Source of the DNA: Naegleria gruberi
Lineage: Eukaryota
Strand: one strand, 5' to 3'
Length of the DNA: 8,109 nucleotides
Assembly (NCBI GenBank): GCA_000004985.1
Contig: GG739089.1
Both the position numbers and the translations under genes were made by a program. The notes beneath the pieces were generated by a model, which saw only the letters and a program-made list of their open reading frames with translations, was not told where the DNA came from and made no database searches. Numbering within the stretch: position 1 is the stretch's first letter; the number at the start of each line of letters is the position of its first letter. Below, one piece after another: positions 1 to 8,109 of this stretch.

Positions 1-1
1 A

Positions 2-199
2 ACAACTTCTTGCACTGCAGCATCAAAAGCTGCTGTCATTTGGCTGGTGATGACTTGTGCCTTCACGCCAACTGTCAAACACACAATAAACAATAACAGG
101 ATAACAATTTGTTTCATTTTCTCTCCAGTAGAAGTAATAGGTGGATGTTTTGTTAATTTTTTCTTGTTGATTTGGTACGAAATGCAAAATGCTTTTTAA
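2..199 (+). CDS. 5'-partial ORF entering from the left window edge: 65 codons plus TAA, in the frame starting at nt 2. Translation is TTSCTAASKAAVIWLVMTCAFTPTVKHTINNNRITICFIFSPVEVIGGCFVNFFLLIWYEMQNAF*. It looks like the hydrophobic C-terminal tail (two TM-like segments) of a membrane protein, possibly a terminal exon.
   Basis: I translated it by hand and found an open frame from 2 to 196 with TAA at 197-199. The two other plus frames hit stops at 48-50 and about 91-93. Local GC (about 47%) is higher than the intergenic sequence downstream, which is exon-like. There are two hydrophobic stretches, AAVIWLVMTCAF and ITICFIFSPVEVIGGCFVNFFLLIWY. The track omits it because it has no in-window start codon. 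A minus-strand ORF at 23..208 overlaps it and is the competing explanation. Confidence 0.25.
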   Translation, partial: TTSCTAASKAAVIWLVMTCAFTPTVKHTINNNRITICFIFSPVEVIGGCFVNFFLLIWYEMQNAF

Positions 200-1004
200 C
201 ACGCACACTTACGCATTCATCCAAATTTAGAAGGCGATTCTTTGTTGAGTGAATGCTAAATATTTTCAATAATATCTAAATTCGATAAGAATACACTAAT
301 GAGAAAAGTGAATTGTGTCTCTTCTCCAAAATGCACTTTTTATCTCTTTTATTGCTATGCCAAATGTCAATTAGATAGCAAACACATCTATAAAGAATTG
401 GCAAGATTTTGATGGCAAGACGAATCGGAAGAGAGAAAGCTCTACAAATTCCATTGTTGTGGAAAGATGGATGGTTGATTTCCGTGAAGTATGTCAGATG
501 CCAATTTCAAAGTTGTTTCGGGGGGAAGTATGGAAAAGGGTATGAGAAATGTGTCCTGTTAGCATTTTCTGTTAATTTAAATATTTGGAAAGTAAATTGT
601 TGTGAACGAAGGATTCGTAAATGGCATGCTTTGTATTACATACTGTCAAATGTTTCTAATATTTCTTGAAACTTCTGTAAACTAAATCATATATGAAGAA
701 ATGCCAGGATGCTTACTCCTGTTGTGTTTTCTAACTGGCTAAATGTCGTGATCGTGGCTATTATCCAATCTTGTTATCCAAATGAAAGCTAACACGAATT
801 GGATAAATGAAAAATGGGTTATGCAATGCTAATAAACATTTTTAGTATCCACTTCTGCTAAAAGAAACTGCAATAGATCTTATGGCACGTTGTTGCAAAC
901 TTATGAGAATGCAGTACTGATTCTCACCAATAAATTTCCCCTTAAAATTGTCCAGGAACATTAATCATCCGATGCTTTGGTCTGGACTACTCAGTGATCC
1001 CTCA

Positions 1005-1042
1005 CTGAGGTTCACCTTAATAACTGAGGTTCACCTTAATAA
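1005..1042. repeat. Perfect 2-copy direct tandem repeat of a 19-bp unit, ctgaggttcaccttaataa (1005-1023 and 1024-1042). A 7-bp stem hairpin, tcagtga-tccc-tcactga, lies at 991-1008 and overlaps the repeat start.
   Basis: Read directly from the sequence: ...tcagtgatccctcaCTGAGGTTCACCTTAATAACTGAGGTTCACCTTAATAAcaatagag. The right arm of the inverted repeat overlaps the first repeat copy. Confidence 0.9.
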
Positions 1043-1242
1043 CAATAGAGTACTTAGTTGTAAACACAGTGTAATACTTGTTCAACAAGTGAAAATTTCC
1101 TATTGAATTTGGCCGATATTTATCAATATAATAATACTTGCCACTGAACCTACTGTTAGAGTTGTTGGAAGTGGTGATCCTGTAGTATGTGCTTTAATTA
1201 AACAATTCTTGAATGTCACTAATGGAAACACAATCAATGGTA

Positions 1243-1273: not shown

Positions 1274-2134
1274 TCAATAATAACCACTTCCATAGACCTT
1301 CTCCACAATGATGAGATTTTCCTTTTCATTTAAGGTTACACGCATCTCATAGAAACTATATAGTGCACCAGCATTGAAAAAGATTGGAAACATTTGCTTA
1401 TCATAATCTTCCCACGAGGATGAAGTTGATGATTGGCTTGTGTAATGTCCATCCAAGTTTGAAAAATAGCAAAATGGACTAATTTGCTGAGATAAATATT
1501 GTTCCAATTTGTCAGTTGATGATTCCTCCTCTTCTTCTTCTGAATCATCGTCTGATGTTATAATATAAGGTGATACTCCATAAACAATCTTACTGTACTT
1601 GACATTACAATTCAATCTCTTTTTGAAGAATAACAAATCCAAACATGAAAACCATTCATCTCCTTCACTAATCAAAATAATAAAACAAAATAATGAGAAT
1701 GGTATTAAAATCTTGGCCTCTTTCACAATATCTGAATTATCATCCCAGAAACATTGATGTAATATAACTTGATCTGTCACAGGATTAGGTCTGTATTCAT
1801 CCGAAATTAAACTTGTCATAATCACAACCAATTTCATCAAGTTTTCTCTCCTCCGTATCTCAAAAAACTCGCCAACCAATGTATTCTTCAAGAGAGGAAA
1901 AGAAAATGTAAATACTTGTTCCAAACTCAGAGAATCTCCTTGAACAATTGTAACATCTTCATTCCTCTCCTCCACTGATATAAATTTAGGAATGATCGAA
2001 AAGAGGTACTCTAAATAATCATAATGATCAGATAAACCTTCATCGGAATTTTGTAATTCAATTTCGATTTCAGGAAACATTGGATTCACAAAATCTTCCC
2101 ATCTAAAATGAGTATTCAACAGGGCAGTCCACAA
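1274..2134 (-). CDS. C-terminal coding region of a minus-strand gene; product is a hypothetical protein. The open frame covers 286 codons and ends at TGA 1274-1276. The first in-frame ATG is at 2078-2080 (MFPEIEIELQNSDEGLSDHYDYLEY…), giving 268 aa if it is free-standing. Most likely it is the 3' exon or C-terminal domain of the large gene that enters the gap. It contains the acidic/Ser cluster SDDDSEEEEEESS.
   Basis: An 861-nt stop-free frame in roughly 65-70% AT DNA is very unlikely to occur by chance. I verified the stop by hand: …VEKVYGSGYY* = revcomp of 1274-1303. The track's start at 2132-2134 is TTG, not ATG. The codon immediately upstream (2135-2137) is an in-frame TGA. The composition is globular-looking, with mixed hydrophobic and charged residues. 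Confidence 0.6.
   Translation of the reverse strand: MWTALLNTHFRWEDFVNPMFPEIEIELQNSDEGLSDHYDYLEYLFSIIPKFISVEERNEDVTIVQGDSLSLEQVFTFSFPLLKNTLVGEFFEIRRRENLMKLVVIMTSLISDEYRPNPVTDQVILHQCFWDDNSDIVKEAKILIPFSLFCFIILISEGDEWFSCLDLLFFKKRLNCNVKYSKIVYGVSPYIITSDDDSEEEEEESSTDKLEQYLSQQISPFCYFSNLDGHYTSQSSTSSSWEDYDKQMFPIFFNAGALYSFYEMRVTLNEKENLIIVEKVYGSGYY
1524..1543 (-). repeat. Coding (GAA/GAG)n trinucleotide run (tcctcctcttcttcttctga on plus) encoding the EEEEEE part of SDDDSEEEEEESS in the minus-strand C-terminal domain.
   Basis: Read directly from the sequence, in frame with the 1274..2134 ORF. Confidence 0.8.
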
Positions 2135-2168
2135 TCATAAATTTCCAAAGGCAGCCTCTCTCCAATAC
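2103..2168 (-). other. Candidate 66-nt GT..AG intron on the minus strand (gtattggagag…ctcattttag). Removing it would eliminate the in-frame TGA (2135-2137) and the TAG (2103-2105) and join the gap-side frame to the 286-codon ORF in phase.
   Basis: The minus-strand read from the gap edge is ttttgca|GTATTGGAGAGAGGCTGCCTTTGGAAATTTATGATTGTGGACTGCCCTGTTGAATACTCATTTTAG|atgggaagattttgtgaatccaatg. The length is a multiple of 3. The acceptor (pyrimidine-rich + AG) is good and the donor (GTATTG) is only fair. The octamer ttttgcag at 2168-2175 could itself be an acceptor instead. Confidence 0.2.
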
Positions 2169-2175
2169 TGCAAAA

Positions 2176-5100
2176 NNNNNNNNNNNNNNNNNNNNNNNNN
2201 NNNNNNNNNNNNNNNNNNNNNNNNNNNNNNNNNNNNNNNNNNNNNNNNNNNNNNNNNNNNNNNNNNNNNNNNNNNNNNNNNNNNNNNNNNNNNNNNNNNN
2301 NNNNNNNNNNNNNNNNNNNNNNNNNNNNNNNNNNNNNNNNNNNNNNNNNNNNNNNNNNNNNNNNNNNNNNNNNNNNNNNNNNNNNNNNNNNNNNNNNNNN
2401 NNNNNNNNNNNNNNNNNNNNNNNNNNNNNNNNNNNNNNNNNNNNNNNNNNNNNNNNNNNNNNNNNNNNNNNNNNNNNNNNNNNNNNNNNNNNNNNNNNNN
2501 NNNNNNNNNNNNNNNNNNNNNNNNNNNNNNNNNNNNNNNNNNNNNNNNNNNNNNNNNNNNNNNNNNNNNNNNNNNNNNNNNNNNNNNNNNNNNNNNNNNN
2601 NNNNNNNNNNNNNNNNNNNNNNNNNNNNNNNNNNNNNNNNNNNNNNNNNNNNNNNNNNNNNNNNNNNNNNNNNNNNNNNNNNNNNNNNNNNNNNNNNNNN
2701 NNNNNNNNNNNNNNNNNNNNNNNNNNNNNNNNNNNNNNNNNNNNNNNNNNNNNNNNNNNNNNNNNNNNNNNNNNNNNNNNNNNNNNNNNNNNNNNNNNNN
2801 NNNNNNNNNNNNNNNNNNNNNNNNNNNNNNNNNNNNNNNNNNNNNNNNNNNNNNNNNNNNNNNNNNNNNNNNNNNNNNNNNNNNNNNNNNNNNNNNNNNN
2901 NNNNNNNNNNNNNNNNNNNNNNNNNNNNNNNNNNNNNNNNNNNNNNNNNNNNNNNNNNNNNNNNNNNNNNNNNNNNNNNNNNNNNNNNNNNNNNNNNNNN
3001 NNNNNNNNNNNNNNNNNNNNNNNNNNNNNNNNNNNNNNNNNNNNNNNNNNNNNNNNNNNNNNNNNNNNNNNNNNNNNNNNNNNNNNNNNNNNNNNNNNNN
3101 NNNNNNNNNNNNNNNNNNNNNNNNNNNNNNNNNNNNNNNNNNNNNNNNNNNNNNNNNNNNNNNNNNNNNNNNNNNNNNNNNNNNNNNNNNNNNNNNNNNN
3201 NNNNNNNNNNNNNNNNNNNNNNNNNNNNNNNNNNNNNNNNNNNNNNNNNNNNNNNNNNNNNNNNNNNNNNNNNNNNNNNNNNNNNNNNNNNNNNNNNNNN
3301 NNNNNNNNNNNNNNNNNNNNNNNNNNNNNNNNNNNNNNNNNNNNNNNNNNNNNNNNNNNNNNNNNNNNNNNNNNNNNNNNNNNNNNNNNNNNNNNNNNNN
3401 NNNNNNNNNNNNNNNNNNNNNNNNNNNNNNNNNNNNNNNNNNNNNNNNNNNNNNNNNNNNNNNNNNNNNNNNNNNNNNNNNNNNNNNNNNNNNNNNNNNN
3501 NNNNNNNNNNNNNNNNNNNNNNNNNNNNNNNNNNNNNNNNNNNNNNNNNNNNNNNNNNNNNNNNNNNNNNNNNNNNNNNNNNNNNNNNNNNNNNNNNNNN
3601 NNNNNNNNNNNNNNNNNNNNNNNNNNNNNNNNNNNNNNNNNNNNNNNNNNNNNNNNNNNNNNNNNNNNNNNNNNNNNNNNNNNNNNNNNNNNNNNNNNNN
3701 NNNNNNNNNNNNNNNNNNNNNNNNNNNNNNNNNNNNNNNNNNNNNNNNNNNNNNNNNNNNNNNNNNNNNNNNNNNNNNNNNNNNNNNNNNNNNNNNNNNN
3801 NNNNNNNNNNNNNNNNNNNNNNNNNNNNNNNNNNNNNNNNNNNNNNNNNNNNNNNNNNNNNNNNNNNNNNNNNNNNNNNNNNNNNNNNNNNNNNNNNNNN
3901 NNNNNNNNNNNNNNNNNNNNNNNNNNNNNNNNNNNNNNNNNNNNNNNNNNNNNNNNNNNNNNNNNNNNNNNNNNNNNNNNNNNNNNNNNNNNNNNNNNNN
4001 NNNNNNNNNNNNNNNNNNNNNNNNNNNNNNNNNNNNNNNNNNNNNNNNNNNNNNNNNNNNNNNNNNNNNNNNNNNNNNNNNNNNNNNNNNNNNNNNNNNN
4101 NNNNNNNNNNNNNNNNNNNNNNNNNNNNNNNNNNNNNNNNNNNNNNNNNNNNNNNNNNNNNNNNNNNNNNNNNNNNNNNNNNNNNNNNNNNNNNNNNNNN
4201 NNNNNNNNNNNNNNNNNNNNNNNNNNNNNNNNNNNNNNNNNNNNNNNNNNNNNNNNNNNNNNNNNNNNNNNNNNNNNNNNNNNNNNNNNNNNNNNNNNNN
4301 NNNNNNNNNNNNNNNNNNNNNNNNNNNNNNNNNNNNNNNNNNNNNNNNNNNNNNNNNNNNNNNNNNNNNNNNNNNNNNNNNNNNNNNNNNNNNNNNNNNN
4401 NNNNNNNNNNNNNNNNNNNNNNNNNNNNNNNNNNNNNNNNNNNNNNNNNNNNNNNNNNNNNNNNNNNNNNNNNNNNNNNNNNNNNNNNNNNNNNNNNNNN
4501 NNNNNNNNNNNNNNNNNNNNNNNNNNNNNNNNNNNNNNNNNNNNNNNNNNNNNNNNNNNNNNNNNNNNNNNNNNNNNNNNNNNNNNNNNNNNNNNNNNNN
4601 NNNNNNNNNNNNNNNNNNNNNNNNNNNNNNNNNNNNNNNNNNNNNNNNNNNNNNNNNNNNNNNNNNNNNNNNNNNNNNNNNNNNNNNNNNNNNNNNNNNN
4701 NNNNNNNNNNNNNNNNNNNNNNNNNNNNNNNNNNNNNNNNNNNNNNNNNNNNNNNNNNNNNNNNNNNNNNNNNNNNNNNNNNNNNNNNNNNNNNNNNNNN
4801 NNNNNNNNNNNNNNNNNNNNNNNNNNNNNNNNNNNNNNNNNNNNNNNNNNNNNNNNNNNNNNNNNNNNNNNNNNNNNNNNNNNNNNNNNNNNNNNNNNNN
4901 NNNNNNNNNNNNNNNNNNNNNNNNNNNNNNNNNNNNNNNNNNNNNNNNNNNNNNNNNNNNNNNNNNNNNNNNNNNNNNNNNNNNNNNNNNNNNNNNNNNN
5001 NNNNNNNNNNNNNNNNNNNNNNNNNNNNNNNNNNNNNNNNNNNNNNNNNNNNNNNNNNNNNNNNNNNNNNNNNNNNNNNNNNNNNNNNNNNNNNNNNNNN

Positions 5101-6786
5101 NNNNNNNNNNNNNNNNNNNNNNNNNNNNNNNNNNNNNNNNNNNNNNNNNNNNNNNNNNNNNNNNNNNNNNNNNNNNNNNNNNNNNNNNNNNNNNNNNNNN
5201 NNNNNNNNNNNNNNNNNNNNNNNNNNNNNNNNNNNNNNNNNNNNNNNNNNNNNNNNNNNNNNNNNNNNNNNNNNNNNNNNNNNNNNNNNNNNNNNNNNNN
5301 NNNNNNNNNNNNNNNNNNNNNNNNNNNNNNNNNNNNNNNNNNNNNNNNNNNNNNNNNNNNNNNNNNNNNNNNNNNNNNNNNNNNNNNNNNNNNNNNNNNN
5401 NNNNNNNNNNNNNNNNNNNNNNNNNNNNNNNNNNNNNNNNNNNNNNNNNNNNNNNNNNNNNNNNNNNNNNNNNNNNNNNNNNNNNNNNNNNNNNNNNNNN
5501 NNNNNNNNNNNNNNNNNNNNNNNNNNNNNNNNNNNNNNNNNNNNNNNNNNNNNNNNNNNNNNNNNNNNNNNNNNNNNNNNNNNNNNNNNNNNNNNNNNNN
5601 NNNNNNNNNNNNNNNNNNNNNNNNNNNNNNNNNNNNNNNNNNNNNNNNNNNNNNNNNNNNNNNNNNNNNNNNNNNNNNNNNNNNNNNNNNNNNNNNNNNN
5701 NNNNNNNNNNNNNNNNNNNNNNNNNNNNNNNNNNNNNNNNNNNNNNNNNNNNNNNNNNNNNNNNNNNNNNNNNNNNNNNNNNNNNNNNNNNNNNNNNNNN
5801 NNNNNNNNNNNNNNNNNNNNNNNNNNNNNNNNNNNNNNNNNNNNNNNNNNNNNNNNNNNNNNNNNNNNNNNNNNNNNNNNNNNNNNNNNNNNNNNNNNNN
5901 NNNNNNNNNNNNNNNNNNNNNNNNNNNNNNNNNNNNNNNNNNNNNNNNNNNNNNNNNNNNNNNNNNNNNNNNNNNNNNNNNNNNNNNNNNNNNNNNNNNN
6001 NNNNNNNNNNNNNNNNNNNNNNNNNNNNNNNNNNNNNNNNNNNNNNNNNNNNNNNNNNNNNNNNNNNNNNNNNNNNNNNNNNNNNNNNNNNNNNNNNNNN
6101 NNNNNNNNNNNNNNNNNNNNNNNNNNNNNNNNNNNNNNNNNNNNNNNNNNNNNNNNNNNNNNNNNNNNNNNNNNNNNNNNNNNNNNNNNNNNNNNNNNNN
6201 NNNNNNNNNNNNNNNNNNNNNNNNNNNNNNNNNNNNNNNNNNNNNNNNNNNNNNNNNNNNNNNNNNNNNNNNNNNNNNNNNNNNNNNNNNNNNNNNNNNN
6301 NNNNNNNNNNNNNNNNNNNNNNNNNNNNNNNNNNNNNNNNNNNNNNNNNNNNNNNNNNNNNNNNNNNNNNNNNNNNNNNNNNNNNNNNNNNNNNNNNNNN
6401 NNNNNNNNNNNNNNNNNNNNNNNNNNNNNNNNNNNNNNNNNNNNNNNNNNNNNNNNNNNNNNNNNNNNNNNNNNNNNNNNNNNNNNNNNNNNNNNNNNNN
6501 NNNNNNNNNNNNNNNNNNNNNNNNNNNNNNNNNNNNNNNNNNNNNNNNNNNNNNNNNNNNNNNNNNNNNNNNNNNNNNNNNNNNNNNNNNNNNNNNNNNN
6601 NNNNNNNNNNNNNNNNNNNNNNNNNNNNNNNNNNNNNNNNNNNNNNNNNNNNNNNNNNNNNNNNNNNNNNNNNNNNNNNNNNNNNNNNNNNNNNNNNNNN
6701 NNNNNNNNNNNNNNNNNNNNNNNNNNNNNNNNNNNNNNNNNNNNNNNNNNNNNNNNNNNNNNNNNNNNNNNNNNNNNNNNNNNNNN
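2176..6786. other. Run of 4,611 N: a scaffold gap or masked block with unknown content. The track ORFs 2103..6797 and most of 2135..7504 are X-translation artefacts.
   Basis: Counted directly: N from 2176 to 6786, and 4611 = 3 x 1537. The non-round size suggests an estimated gap or a masked real segment. Confidence 0.99.
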
Positions 6787-6787
6787 T

Positions 6788-7504
6788 GTTTGAACAAATT
6801 GAATTCATGAAATTAGCTCTAAGTAATCTTAATTTGTCACAAAATTGTCTAAAATTTGAAATAATGTCTTCCATCTCCTGAGACGATTCTCCTGATTCAA
6901 TACTTGTCGAAAAAGCATTAAAAGTCTCTCTAAAGTATTGTACCATAATTTCTGAGATATTCCCTTTGATTAAATACTCTCTTTGGTCGATATTCAACTT
7001 GTAAAATAGAGCTGATTGCACAAATACTATAAATTGTTCTCTCAGTCTCTCTTTAATTTCCAAACAGTTTTCTAATGTCGAAAATACAATTAAATATCGT
7101 TCTGTTATATTACAAATCATATGTACAGCCTGTACCAATGAATTAATATCCGAAATACTATTAAATATTGATACATGATTCTTAATAAAATGTTGTCTCA
7201 TATTTTGAATATATGGTTCAACAATTTGAGTTTTATCCATCACATTCCTCTCTGCCAACAATTTAATTTGCTGAAAACAAATTCCATTCGGATTTTCCAA
7301 CAATTCTGCACAATGAGCTGCATTAATTGCAATAGTTTTTAATAATTCCTGATGACCGGAACCCGAACCAGAACCTCCAACACTATATATTTCTTGTTGT
7401 TCTTTTTGTATGGATAATGATGATGAGGAACAAGCCTTGTTTGATAAATTCCCAACAGCATTCCAACTTTGCACTTGTTGTGCAAGAATTAAATTGTTCA
7501 TCAT
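6788..7504 (-). CDS. N-terminal 239 codons of a large minus-strand gene (hypothetical protein) that continues into the N gap. ATG-ATG is at 7499-7504. Translation is MMNNLILAQQVQSWNAVGNLSNKACSSSSLSIQKEQQEIYSVGGSGSGSGHQELLKTIAINAAHCAELLENPNGICFQQIKLL…RLLRANFMNSICSN. It is helical-looking, with a (GS)4 linker.
   Basis: I verified the codons at both ends by hand (revcomp of gttcatcat at 7496-7504 = ATGATGAAC; the last full codon at 6788-6790 is gtt, giving N). An in-frame TAA lies 6 nt upstream of the ATG, so this is the first ATG of the frame. The context is A-rich Kozak-like, aaaattaaaaaATGATG. It is 717 nt stop-free in AT-rich DNA. Confidence 0.6.
7356..7378 (-). repeat. Imperfect hexanucleotide tandem repeat (NGAACC)3, ccggaacccgaaccagaacctcc on plus, encoding the GSGSGSG linker of the N-terminal fragment.
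   Basis: Read directly from the sequence; it corresponds to SVGGSGSGSGHQ in the minus-strand translation. Confidence 0.7.
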
Positions 7505-7526
7505 TTTTTAATTTTGGAGGGAAATT
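7505..7526. promoter_or_regulatory. 22-bp spacer (tttttaattttggagggaaatt) between divergent start codons. The shared bidirectional 5' region/promoter must overlap it, or the true 5' ends lie elsewhere.
   Basis: The minus ATG is at 7502-7504 and the plus ATG at 7527-7529. In-frame stops sit immediately upstream of each (TAA at 7508-7510 for the minus gene, TAA at 7509-7511 for the plus gene), so neither ORF can extend 5' without an intron. Confidence 0.35.
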
Positions 7527-8108
7527 ATGAAAAAATATTTAAATTTTAATAAACAAGTTTTACTTTCAATTCTCTCTCGACAACAGCAGCAGAAACAACA
7601 ACAACAACGAGTAGATAGCTTTGAATCAAAAATATATAATAGAACAACAAATATTGAAGGATTGAATAGGAGTACAATAGTACAAGAAAGATTTTATAAT
7701 ACAAGCCTCATTAGAATGTCATCATCATCCGATAATAATAATAATTCATCATCACATGATGAGAGTATTGCACCTTCCTCTTCATCATCAGAACAACAAC
7801 AAGTAGATAATAATACAAATTTTGAACAAGTGGGATGGAATCAAACTAAAATTGATAGACCAACACAGGAAGATATTCAAGTCATTGAAAAGATACAATT
7901 GAAGAAGGCTATTACAGTGCCGAATGCTATTGTGAAGAGATGTAAATGGGGATATCCACAAGTGACATTTGCATTCACTAGTAAAAACAAGGCAGAAACT
8001 TCTGAGAATACCTATGTACCAGGAACATTCCTTTGGTTGACATGTCCTAGAGTTAATTTAATTATTGATAAAGTGGAAACATCTGATGAATTTAATGAAA
8101 TAAGAAGA
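7527..8108 (+). CDS. 3'-partial ORF of at least 194 codons running off the right window edge; product is a hypothetical protein. Its N-terminal low-complexity region (QQQQKQQQQ, SSSSDNNNNSSS, SSSSSEQQQ) is followed by a globular-looking segment, …KIQLKKAITVPNAIVKRCKWGYPQVTFAFTSKNKAETSENTYVPGTFLWLTCPRVNLIIDKVETSDEFNEIRR…
   Basis: I translated it codon by codon by hand from ATG 7527-7529 to 8108 and found no stop. An upstream in-frame TAA at 7509-7511 makes this the first ATG. The track omits it because it has no in-window stop. I cannot assign a family from memory. Confidence 0.6.
   Translation, partial: MKKYLNFNKQVLLSILSRQQQQKQQQQRVDSFESKIYNRTTNIEGLNRSTIVQERFYNTSLIRMSSSSDNNNNSSSHDESIAPSSSSSEQQQVDNNTNFEQVGWNQTKIDRPTQEDIQVIEKIQLKKAITVPNAIVKRCKWGYPQVTFAFTSKNKAETSENTYVPGTFLWLTCPRVNLIIDKVETSDEFNEIRR
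7581..7610 (+). repeat. Coding trinucleotide microsatellite (CAA/CAG)n encoding QQQQKQQQQR. The same gene has further runs at 7719..7754 ((TCA)4-GAT-(AAT)4-(TCA)4 = SSSSDNNNNSSSS) and at 7776..7802 (TCC-TCT-(TCA)3-GAA-(CAA)3).
   Basis: Read directly: caacagcagcagaaacaacaacaacaacga; tcatcatcatccgataataataataattcatcatca; tcctcttcatcatcagaacaacaacaa. Confidence 0.85.
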
Positions 8109-8109
8109 A

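What the first reader, a model, noticed from the sequence alone, without database searches (positions are those of the whole stretch)
7502..7529. Head-to-head gene pair with start codons only 22 bp apart
The minus-strand large gene (ATG 7502-7504) and the plus-strand low-complexity/globular gene (ATG 7527-7529) are divergent. Only 22 bp (tttttaattttggagggaaatt) lie between their first ATGs. Each ORF has an in-frame stop inside this spacer, so neither can extend 5' without splicing. For a eukaryote with roughly 1-kb intergenic regions elsewhere in the same window this is unusually tight. It implies one of four things: overlapping or antisense 5' UTRs from a shared bidirectional promoter, 5'-UTR introns or upstream exons, a wrongly chosen start on one side (next plus-strand Met at 7716-7718; next minus-strand Met far downstream), or a very compact genome.
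Basis: seen in the sequence. Interest (0 to 1): 0.55.

Follow-up and report, generated by a model that had tools for sequence, protein, structure and literature searches.

The report
Conserved back-to-back Naegleria gene pair
Two real genes of a Naegleria-type amoeba (a cell-cycle ubiquitin-ligase subunit, APC2, and a protein of unknown function, DUF501) start 22 bases apart on opposite strands; related species keep this layout, so it is a true but fairly ordinary result of a very gene-dense genome.

Summary
ATG 7504-7502 (minus) and ATG 7527-7529 (plus) are separated by 22 bp, and a TTAA at 7508-7511 supplies an in-frame TAA for both frames.

The window is Naegleria gruberi-like DNA: the plus protein is 97% identical, over its full visible length, to an N. 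gruberi predicted protein. The minus gene is APC2. The plus gene is a DUF501 protein.

Both start codons are supported by orthologues. APC2 begins M-N-x-NLILA. DUF501 begins MKK[Y/I] in six sequences, and the 51-81-codon extension stays open in four diverged taxa.

The head-to-head pairing recurs in three other Naegleria-type assemblies, with spacers of 37, 38 and 58 bp. In Willaertia, APC2 is absent from this site, yet the conserved MKK start lies 2 nt after the upstream gene's stop codon.

Same-strand gaps of 50-90 bp are common in these loci. The tightness therefore reflects genome compaction. It implies very short or overlapping 5' leaders, and promoter elements inside the neighbour's coding sequence. 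No transcription start site (TSS) data were available.

The "large" minus gene cannot be verified: 2176-6786 is an N mask, and orthologous APC2 spans about 2.5 kb. Interest is low to moderate.

The parts
6787..7504 (-). Visible 5' part (239 codons) of the APC2 (anaphase-promoting complex subunit 2) gene. It continues into the N mask.
   Evidence: E=2.7e-52 and 56% identity to N. lovaniensis P0003, which UniRef names 'Anaphase-promoting complex sub...' and which carries PF25773 TPR_ANAPC2. P0003 hits PF25773 at 5e-07; the orthologous ORF is followed on the same strand by a Cullin_AB + ANAPC2 ORF; the alignment runs to the last visible residue (..NFMNSICSN).
7499..7504 (-). APC2 start: two consecutive ATG codons (7504-7502 and 7501-7499).
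   Evidence: Orthologues begin MNGNLILA (L001) and MNQHTFNLI (N. lovaniensis and L004), aligned to the window's MMNNLILA.
7505..7526 (.). 22-bp spacer between the two start codons (tttttaattttggagggaaatt).
   Evidence: Orthologous spacers are 37, 38 and 58 bp and are not conserved in sequence.
7508..7511 (.). Palindromic TTAA that gives the in-frame TAA upstream of both ORFs.
   Evidence: plus-frame TAA at 7509, minus-frame TAA at 7510. Confirmed against the sequence.
7527..8109 (+). DUF501-family gene, first 194 codons. It runs off the end of the window.
   Evidence: PF04417, 27.7 bits against a cut-off of 23.8; 97% identity and 100% coverage to the N. gruberi predicted protein P0005 (371 aa), which starts MKKYLNFNKQ.
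7527..7715 (+). N-terminal extension of DUF501 (63 codons). It is basic, low in acidic residues and low-complexity, and may be a targeting presequence.
   Evidence: M1-K2-K3 invariant in six sequences, and MKK[Y/I]LNFNK shared with Willaertia. ATGAAAAAATATT invariant in 4 taxa; frame open in 4 taxa, P(open|shuffle) 0.002-0.025 each, with 6 K+R and 1 D+E in the first 30 aa.
7716..7718 (+).
   Evidence: The ENA gene caller chose a downstream Met in L001 (Met68 of the extended ORF).
7932..8096 (+). Start of the conserved DUF501 domain (aa 136-190, CKWGYPQVTFA...FLWLTCPR).
   Evidence: profile positions 2-52 of 139; invariant columns.
2176..6786 (.). Run of 4611 N (masked sequence). It hides the rest of APC2 and whatever lies beyond it.
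   Evidence: Orthologous APC2 spans only 2433 bp (L001 1611-4043) and 2548 bp (L003 10001-12548).

Best explanation
This is a genuine head-to-head pair of nuclear genes, APC2 (minus strand) and a DUF501 protein (plus strand), in a Naegleria gruberi-like heterolobosean amoeba. It is evolutionarily conserved, and both first ATGs are the true start codons.

Shown: the 22-bp gap is one case of general genome compaction in this lineage.

Inferred: 22 bp cannot hold two separate promoters plus two leaders. So the two genes must share one minimal bidirectional initiation zone. Their mRNAs must have very short leaders (about 40 nt or less, possibly only a few nt), or 5' ends that overlap in antisense. 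The upstream promoter elements of each gene must lie inside the first roughly 50-100 bp of the partner's coding sequence.

I favour short leaders that start in or at the edges of the spacer over long overlapping UTRs.

DUF501 behaves the same way whatever its neighbour. In Willaertia its conserved MKK start sits 2 nt after the stop codon of an upstream same-strand gene. This suggests that DUF501 initiation depends on sequence at or near its own start (the invariant ATGAAAAAATATT) rather than on a dedicated upstream region.
For: Identity of the genes.

Spacer and stops.

Conserved pairing:
- L001 (ENA contig): APC2 ATG at 4043(-) and MKKY ATG at 4081(+), 37 bp apart.
- N. lovaniensis L003: DUF501 ends at 9962(-) and APC2 starts at 10001(+), 38 bp.
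- L004: 670(-) and 729(+), 58 bp.

Start codons:
- The APC2 alignment begins at Met1.
- DUF501 M1-K2-K3 is invariant in six sequences, and MKK[Y/I]LNFNK is shared by N. gruberi and Willaertia.
- A 13-nt invariant block, ATGAAAAAATATT, sits in an otherwise unalignable spacer region.
- The extension frame has 0 stops in 4 taxa, against 1-19 in the other frames. P(open|shuffle) is 0.0024, 0.025, 0.0075 and 0.0094.

Compaction: same-strand CDS gaps of 50, 66, 84, 89, 58, 63, 83 and 64 bp, and convergent gaps of 3-50 bp, in L001-L003. N. lovaniensis is reported as 77% coding (PMC6125883).

Short leaders: a DUF501 leader reaching into APC2 would pick up upstream ATGs in 3 of 4 taxa (-54 in-frame in L001, -29/-40 in L003, -60 in-frame in L004). 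An APC2 leader longer than 43 nt would pick one up in L004.

Willaertia: the TLC-domain gene's stop is at 9915-9917 and the MKK ATG is at 9920.
Against: No TSS, RNA-seq, CAGE or EST evidence could be reached, so every statement about leaders and promoters is inference. Library searches found no TSS or UTR characterisation for Naegleria.

Other head-to-head gaps in the same loci are larger (188, 325 and 539 bp). This pair is therefore at the tight end even for these genomes.

The genome-wide distribution was not available, and N. gruberi itself is less dense than N. lovaniensis.

The upstream-ATG argument is weak statistically: ATG-free runs of about 100 nt are expected fairly often in this composition.

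The gene models deposited for Willaertia and for L001 start at downstream Mets.
Confidence: 0.7

Rival explanations
1. The DUF501 start is mis-assigned. Translation begins at Met64 (7716-7718). The 189 bp from 7527 to 7715, together with the 22-bp spacer, then form an ordinary bidirectional promoter and 5' UTR of about 211 bp.
For: Acrasis-like orthologues have no extension. The deposited models for L001 and Willaertia start at downstream Mets. The extension is low-complexity, hardly alignable and variable in length. A gap of 211 bp would match other divergent gaps in these loci (188-539 bp).
Against: The frame stays open over 51-81 codons in four strongly diverged taxa, with P 0.002-0.025 each. 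M-K-K is invariant at the ORF's first codon in six sequences, and MKK[Y/I]LNFNK is shared across genera. The N. gruberi reference model uses Met1.
Confidence: 0.12
2. One or both genes are transcribed from a distant TSS with a non-coding first exon and a 5'-UTR intron. On this reading the 22-bp spacer is intronic or exonic UTR rather than a shared promoter.
For: [quoted passage not shown] Nothing in the sequence formally excludes it.
Against: Any such upstream exon would have to lie inside or beyond the partner gene's coding sequence, in all four taxa. Both proteins align from their first Met, so no upstream coding exon is needed. The spacer shows no conserved splice-acceptor-like block.
Confidence: 0.1
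3. The juxtaposition is an artefact: a misassembly, a pseudogene, or chance ORFs.
For: None found. The window contains a long N mask, and the origin of the sequence is not disclosed.
Against: The same pair, in the same orientation, appears in four independent assemblies. Both proteins have strong homologues. The junction itself is unmasked and continuous.
Confidence: 0.02

Closest known systems
Bidirectional promoters of divergent (head-to-head) gene pairs, as defined for mammals and yeast (5' ends less than 1 kb apart). From my general knowledge.
   Same: Two protein-coding genes on opposite strands with facing 5' ends and a single short shared upstream region. The arrangement is conserved among related species.
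   Different: Here the distance is measured between start codons and is only 22 bp (22-58 bp in relatives). That is less than the footprint of one RNA polymerase II pre-initiation complex. The region therefore cannot contain two separated core promoters plus two leaders. Co-expression and TSSs are unknown.
Gene-dense protist and microsporidian genomes with ultra-short leaders or overlapping transcripts: Giardia AT-rich initiators with leaders of 0-14 nt, and Encephalitozoon transcripts that start inside the upstream gene. From my general knowledge; not retrieved here.
   Same: CDS-to-CDS gaps of tens of bases. An A/T-rich sequence surrounds the start codon. Promoter elements are inferred to lie within neighbouring coding sequence.
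   Different: Naegleria is a free-living heterolobosean with a 30-41 Mb genome, not a reduced parasite. No TSS mapping shows that its leaders are this short. The window also contains a gap of about 1.15 kb (118-1273), so compaction is uneven.
Annotated N. gruberi and N. lovaniensis gene models for the same two genes (P0005; P0003 and P0004, locus tags C9374_001998 and C9374_001999).
   Same: Same genes, same orientation and same start codons. In that sense the arrangement is already present in public annotation.
   Different: The window differs from the N. gruberi reference protein at about 3% of residues, so it is another strain or haplotype. I found no paper commenting on this pair.

Membership tests
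Head-to-head gene pair with a shared bidirectional promoter region | Two protein-coding genes on opposite strands with facing 5' ends | tested here: met
   APC2 on the minus strand and DUF501 on the plus strand, both supported by homology. Start codons at 7504 and 7527.
Head-to-head gene pair with a shared bidirectional promoter region | Transcription start sites less than 1 kb apart and diverging from one regulatory region | not testable with these tools
   No transcript or TSS data were available. The ATG-to-ATG distance of 22 bp makes closely spaced or crossing TSSs very likely, unless a 5'-UTR intron is involved.
Head-to-head gene pair with a shared bidirectional promoter region | Arrangement conserved in orthologous loci | tested here: met
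   Spacers of 37 bp (L001), 38 bp (N. lovaniensis) and 58 bp (L004). Not conserved in Willaertia or in the Acrasis-like loci.
Head-to-head gene pair with a shared bidirectional promoter region | Both genes expressed or co-regulated | not testable with these tools
   No expression data could be reached.
APC2 / ANAPC2 (cullin-like subunit of the anaphase-promoting complex) | N-terminal ANAPC2-type helical repeats (PF25773) | tested here: inconclusive
   The window fragment alone gives no Pfam hit. It is homologous (E=2.7e-52) to N. lovaniensis P0003, which hits PF25773 at 5e-07. There was no PDB sequence hit.
APC2 / ANAPC2 (cullin-like subunit of the anaphase-promoting complex) | C-terminal cullin-homology and ANAPC2 winged-helix domains | not testable with these tools
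   That part of the window is masked (2176-6786). In L001 and L003 the directly downstream same-strand ORF carries PF26557 and PF08672.
DUF501 (PF04417) | Match to the Pfam model above the gathering score | tested here: met
   27.7 bits against a cut-off of 23.8, with only the first 52 of 139 profile positions inside the window. 97% identical to N. gruberi P0005, which carries PF04417.
N-terminal mitochondrial-type targeting presequence (on DUF501) | Basic, hydroxylated, acid-poor amphipathic N-terminus recognised by a dedicated predictor, or experimental localisation | not testable with these tools
   Composition alone is consistent: the first 30 aa have 3-6 K+R and 0-2 D+E in four taxa. No predictor was available.
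E2F-type cell-cycle promoter element (TTTSSCGC) | Match to the consensus, including the central CG | tested here: not met
   The window has only TTTCCCTC (7517-7524, minus strand), a 7/8 match with the CG core broken. The L001 and L004 spacers have 7/8 matches that keep GGCGC. N. lovaniensis has none.
Giardia-type initiator promoters with near-leaderless mRNAs | Leaders shorter than about 15-20 nt, and an A/T-rich initiator at the start codon that is sufficient for transcription | not testable with these tools
   Only indirect evidence: the invariant ATGAAAAAATATT, and a DUF501 start that abuts whichever neighbour it has (22-58 bp, or 2 nt in Willaertia).

The most novel reading that the evidence does not exclude
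DUF501 mRNAs in the Naegleria/Willaertia clade are leaderless or nearly so. They would be launched from an initiator-like element that coincides with the invariant ATGAAAAAATATT. On this reading the 22-bp spacer plus the first codons of both genes form a minimal bidirectional promoter, and the same DNA encodes protein (a presequence-like extension and the APC2 N-terminus) while also acting as the partner's promoter. A very short leader could also cause leaky scanning to Met64, giving two DUF501 isoforms, one with the targeting extension and one without.
Probability: 0.15. Interest if true: 0.55.

Novelty: new member of a known kind. Interest (0 to 1): 0.28.

Why it matters
Promoter and leader architecture in Naegleria is essentially uncharacterised. 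Recent transgene work still uses about 1-kb upstream fragments chosen empirically (PMC12845041).

A conserved pair whose start codons are 22-58 bp apart sets a hard upper bound on how much dedicated DNA a Naegleria promoter plus leader needs. So does a DUF501 start that lies 2 nt after a stop codon in Willaertia. Both loci are convenient for TSS mapping, and the spacer is a candidate minimal bidirectional promoter for expression vectors.

Beyond that, it is an expected by-product of a gene-dense genome and does not change any general picture.

Tried and rejected
- PDB sequence searches with the APC2 N-terminal profile, the N. gruberi DUF501 protein and the 286-aa ORF at 1277-2134 gave nothing usable.
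- Rfam and tRNA scans of the window were empty, so no RNA gene hides in or near the spacer.
- An exact-match scan of genome contigs with the 42-mer across the spacer found nothing, so the source contig and its unmasked sequence could not be recovered.
- The metagenome scan with the DUF501 alignment returned only distant loci, Acrasis-like or bacterial, with no APC2 nearby.
- The exhaustive representative search with the APC2 N-terminus gave only 2 hits. It did not yield the N. gruberi APC2 model, so the length of the masked gene could not be settled.
- The N. gruberi protein P0005 is not on record in the contig index, so the reference locus could not be fetched.
- Literature searches for Naegleria TSS, UTR, intergenic or bidirectional-promoter data found nothing specific. 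The N. gruberi genome paper is not held.
- The inverted repeat across the two starts (7503-7512 and 7527-7536) is A/T-run low complexity, and I discounted it.
- The GGAGG upstream of ATG 7527 looks like a Shine-Dalgarno site. It is irrelevant because the DNA is eukaryotic nuclear (97% identity to N. gruberi).
- I considered an alternative genetic code because of the in-frame TGA at 2135-2137. I dropped it: TAA, TAG and TGA all behave as stops elsewhere, and a plausible splice acceptor lies next to that TGA.

Full report
**Observation.** The coordinates are right. On the plus strand the sequence reads ...gttCATCAT|tttttaattttggagggaaatt|ATGaaaaaatat....
- The minus-strand ORF starts with two ATG codons (7504-7502 and 7501-7499; the protein begins MMNN).
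- The plus-strand ORF starts at 7527-7529.
- The spacer 7505-7526 is 22 bp.
- Both frames are closed by TAA inside the spacer: plus frame at 7509-7511, minus frame at 7510-7508. Both come from one palindromic TTAA.
- The next plus-strand Met is codon 64, at 7716-7718.
Window 2176-6786 is 4611 N. The 'large' 1789-aa minus ORF that a mechanical ORF list shows is read-through of that mask.

**What the sequence is.**
- The plus ORF (194 visible codons) matches Pfam DUF501 above threshold (27.7 bits against 23.8).
- It is 97% identical, over 100% of its length, to a 371-aa Naegleria gruberi predicted protein, P0005. The window is therefore nuclear DNA of N. gruberi or a very close strain or haplotype.
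- The minus ORF (239 visible codons) is homologous (E=2.7e-52, 56% identity) to N. lovaniensis C9374_001998 (P0003). UniRef names that protein an anaphase-promoting complex subunit, and it hits PF25773 TPR_ANAPC2.
- In the orthologous loci that ORF is followed on the same strand by an ORF with Cullin_AB and ANAPC2 domains. The gene is therefore APC2.
- Orthologous APC2 spans 2433 bp (L001) and 2548 bp (L003). In the window it should end near position 5000, inside the mask. The ORF at 1274-2134 is most likely a different gene, or is joined through unseen exons. This cannot be decided here.

**Is the pairing conserved?** Yes, within Naegleria-type genomes.
- In an ENA metagenome contig (L001), the APC2 ATG is at 4043(-) and a DUF501 ATG encoding MKKYW... 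is at 4081(+), giving a 37-bp spacer. The gene caller had picked a downstream Met.
- In N. lovaniensis (L003), DUF501 ends its 5' side at 9962(-) and APC2 starts at 10001(+), 38 bp apart.
- In a second ENA contig (L004), the starts are at 670(-) and 729(+), 58 bp apart.
- The flanking order, TLC-domain gene then APC2 then DUF501 then radial-spoke gene, is the same.
- In Willaertia magna (L002), APC2 is absent from the site. The order there is TLC gene, DUF501, radial-spoke gene, all on one strand.
- A tblastn search found no APC2 next to DUF501 in Willaertia or in two Acrasis-like loci.

**Are the two ATGs the real starts?**
- For APC2, the three orthologous proteins align from Met1: MMNNLILA, MNGNLILA and MNQHTFNLI. 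L004 starts the same way (MNQHTFRLI).
- For DUF501, conservation is strongest exactly at the first codon. M1-K2-K3 is invariant in six sequences.
- At the DNA level, ATGAAAAAATATT is the only invariant block in an otherwise unalignable region.
- The 51-81 codons between this Met and the next Met have diverged almost beyond alignment and differ in length. Even so, they contain no stop in frame in any of four taxa, while the other five frames carry 1-19 stops.
- Composition-matched shuffles keep the frame open with probability 0.0024, 0.025, 0.0075 and 0.0094.
- In Willaertia the deposited model starts at a downstream Met. An in-frame ATG 27 codons upstream encodes MKKILNFNKK, against MKKYLNFNKQ in the window.
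- The 'wrong start' option is therefore disfavoured. So are upstream coding exons.
- The extension is basic and poor in acidic residues, as a targeting presequence would be. No predictor was available, so this remains a suggestion.

**How unusual is 22 bp?**
- In the three annotated neighbourhoods, same-strand CDS-to-CDS gaps are frequently 50-90 bp: 50, 66, 84 and 89 bp in N. lovaniensis; 58, 63 and 83 bp in Willaertia; 64 bp in L001.
- Convergent gaps are 3-50 bp.
- The N. lovaniensis genome paper reports 77% coding sequence (PMC6125883).
- A same-strand gap has to hold a 3' end, a promoter and a leader. These genomes must therefore routinely use very short UTRs and promoter elements embedded in neighbouring genes.
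- Against that background a 22-58 bp head-to-head gap is tight but not out of character.
- It is still the tightest divergent gap seen here; the other three are 188, 325 and 539 bp. I could not obtain the genome-wide distribution.
That gap lies between the stop of the 1274-2134 ORF and the start of a signal-peptide gene.

**Mechanism.**
- Shown: two bona fide start codons lie 22 bp apart, and the arrangement is conserved.
- Inferred: the spacer cannot contain two independent promoters and two leaders. Either both mRNAs have very short leaders starting in or at the edge of the spacer, or their 5' ends cross and overlap in antisense. In either case, each gene's upstream promoter elements lie in the partner's first codons.
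- I lean towards short leaders, on two grounds. A DUF501 leader reaching into APC2 would acquire upstream ATGs in three of four taxa (in-frame at -54 in L001 and at -60 in L004; -29 and -40 in N. lovaniensis). An APC2 leader longer than 43 nt would acquire one in L004. This is weak evidence.
- The Willaertia junction points the same way. The TLC gene's stop codon is at 9915-9917 and the conserved MKK ATG is at 9920, a 2-nt gap. DUF501 therefore abuts whichever neighbour it has, and no upstream sequence is shared between the two contexts.
- This suggests initiation is specified at or near its own start. It could alternatively mean read-through from, or overlap with, the upstream transcript.
- No TSS, UTR or promoter data for Naegleria were found in the library. 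A 2025 N. fowleri transgene paper still uses about 1-kb upstream fragments chosen empirically (PMC12845041).

**Comparison with what is known.**
- The arrangement fits the operational class of bidirectional, head-to-head gene pairs. It resembles what is described for gene-dense protists and microsporidia, which have short leaders or overlapping transcripts (from my general knowledge; not retrieved here).
- It differs from textbook bidirectional promoters in that the start codons themselves are closer than one pre-initiation-complex footprint.
- The same gene models, with the same starts, already exist in the N. gruberi and N. lovaniensis annotations. The arrangement is therefore implicit in public data, though I found no paper discussing it.

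**Verdict.** It is a new example of a known kind, of low to moderate interest (0.28). Its main value is as a natural minimal-promoter test case in an organism whose promoters are uncharacterised.

Noticed in passing
window 2176-6786: A 4611-base run of N occupies 57% of the window. Mechanical ORF lists read through it, giving artefactual ORFs of 1789 and 1564 aa. The rest of APC2, and probably a TLC-domain gene expected from synteny, would lie inside the mask.
   Followed up: partly
window 1274-2175 (minus strand): A 286-codon open frame, acidic and Ser-rich near its C-terminus, has no Pfam or PDB match and no counterpart in the orthologous loci. It lies in the same frame as the APC2 start across the mask, but an in-frame TGA at 2135-2137 interrupts it. 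A possible splice acceptor (cattttag|a) lies just downstream of that TGA, so the gene probably continues upstream through an intron. Synteny with N. lovaniensis breaks here.
   Followed up: partly
window 1-117 (minus strand): A third gene starts at 117 and runs off the left end of the window. It opens with a clear signal-peptide-like N-terminus, MKQIVILLLFIVCLTVGVKAQ. The 1156 bp between it and the 1274 stop is the only long non-coding gap visible.
   Followed up: no
window 1004-1043: A perfect tandem duplication of a 19-bp unit (ACTGAGGTTCACCTTAATA, 2.1 copies) lies in the long intergenic region.
   Followed up: no
L002 (Willaertia magna JBEGDK010000079) 9915-9922: The conserved DUF501 start (ATG at 9920, MKKILNFNKK) lies 2 nt after the TAA of the upstream same-strand TLC-domain gene. 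The deposited DUF501 model (P0002) starts 27 codons further downstream and probably misses the true N-terminus. This implies overlapping or bicistronic transcription.
   Followed up: partly
window 7517-7524; L001 4062-4073; L004 679-686: Near-matches (7/8) to the E2F consensus TTTSSCGC fall inside the APC2/DUF501 spacer in 3 of 4 taxa. The expected numbers per spacer are 0.006-0.11. This would suit a cell-cycle gene such as APC2. However, the motif was chosen after seeing the data, none of the matches is exact, the window's copy lacks the CG core, and N. lovaniensis has none.
   Followed up: partly
L003 10001-12548; L001 1611-4043: APC2 is deposited as two separate gene models in N. lovaniensis (311 aa and 377 aa) and as two in the ENA contig. 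These are probably one gene split by unrecognised introns or frame changes.
   Followed up: no
L001 4027-4081; L004 669-729: In two relatives the DUF501 frame is also open from an in-frame ATG further upstream, at -54 and -60. That ATG overlaps the APC2 start codon in antisense (TTCATGG in L004). The longest ORFs of the two genes would therefore overlap head-to-head. Conservation favours the MKKY Met.
   Followed up: partly
window 7527-8108 compared with P0005: The window differs from the N. gruberi reference protein at about 3% of residues (for example Y37H, T40I, T50F, and a Q/N shift in the EQQQVDNNTN tract). It therefore comes from another strain or haplotype, not from the reference assembly.
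   Followed up: no
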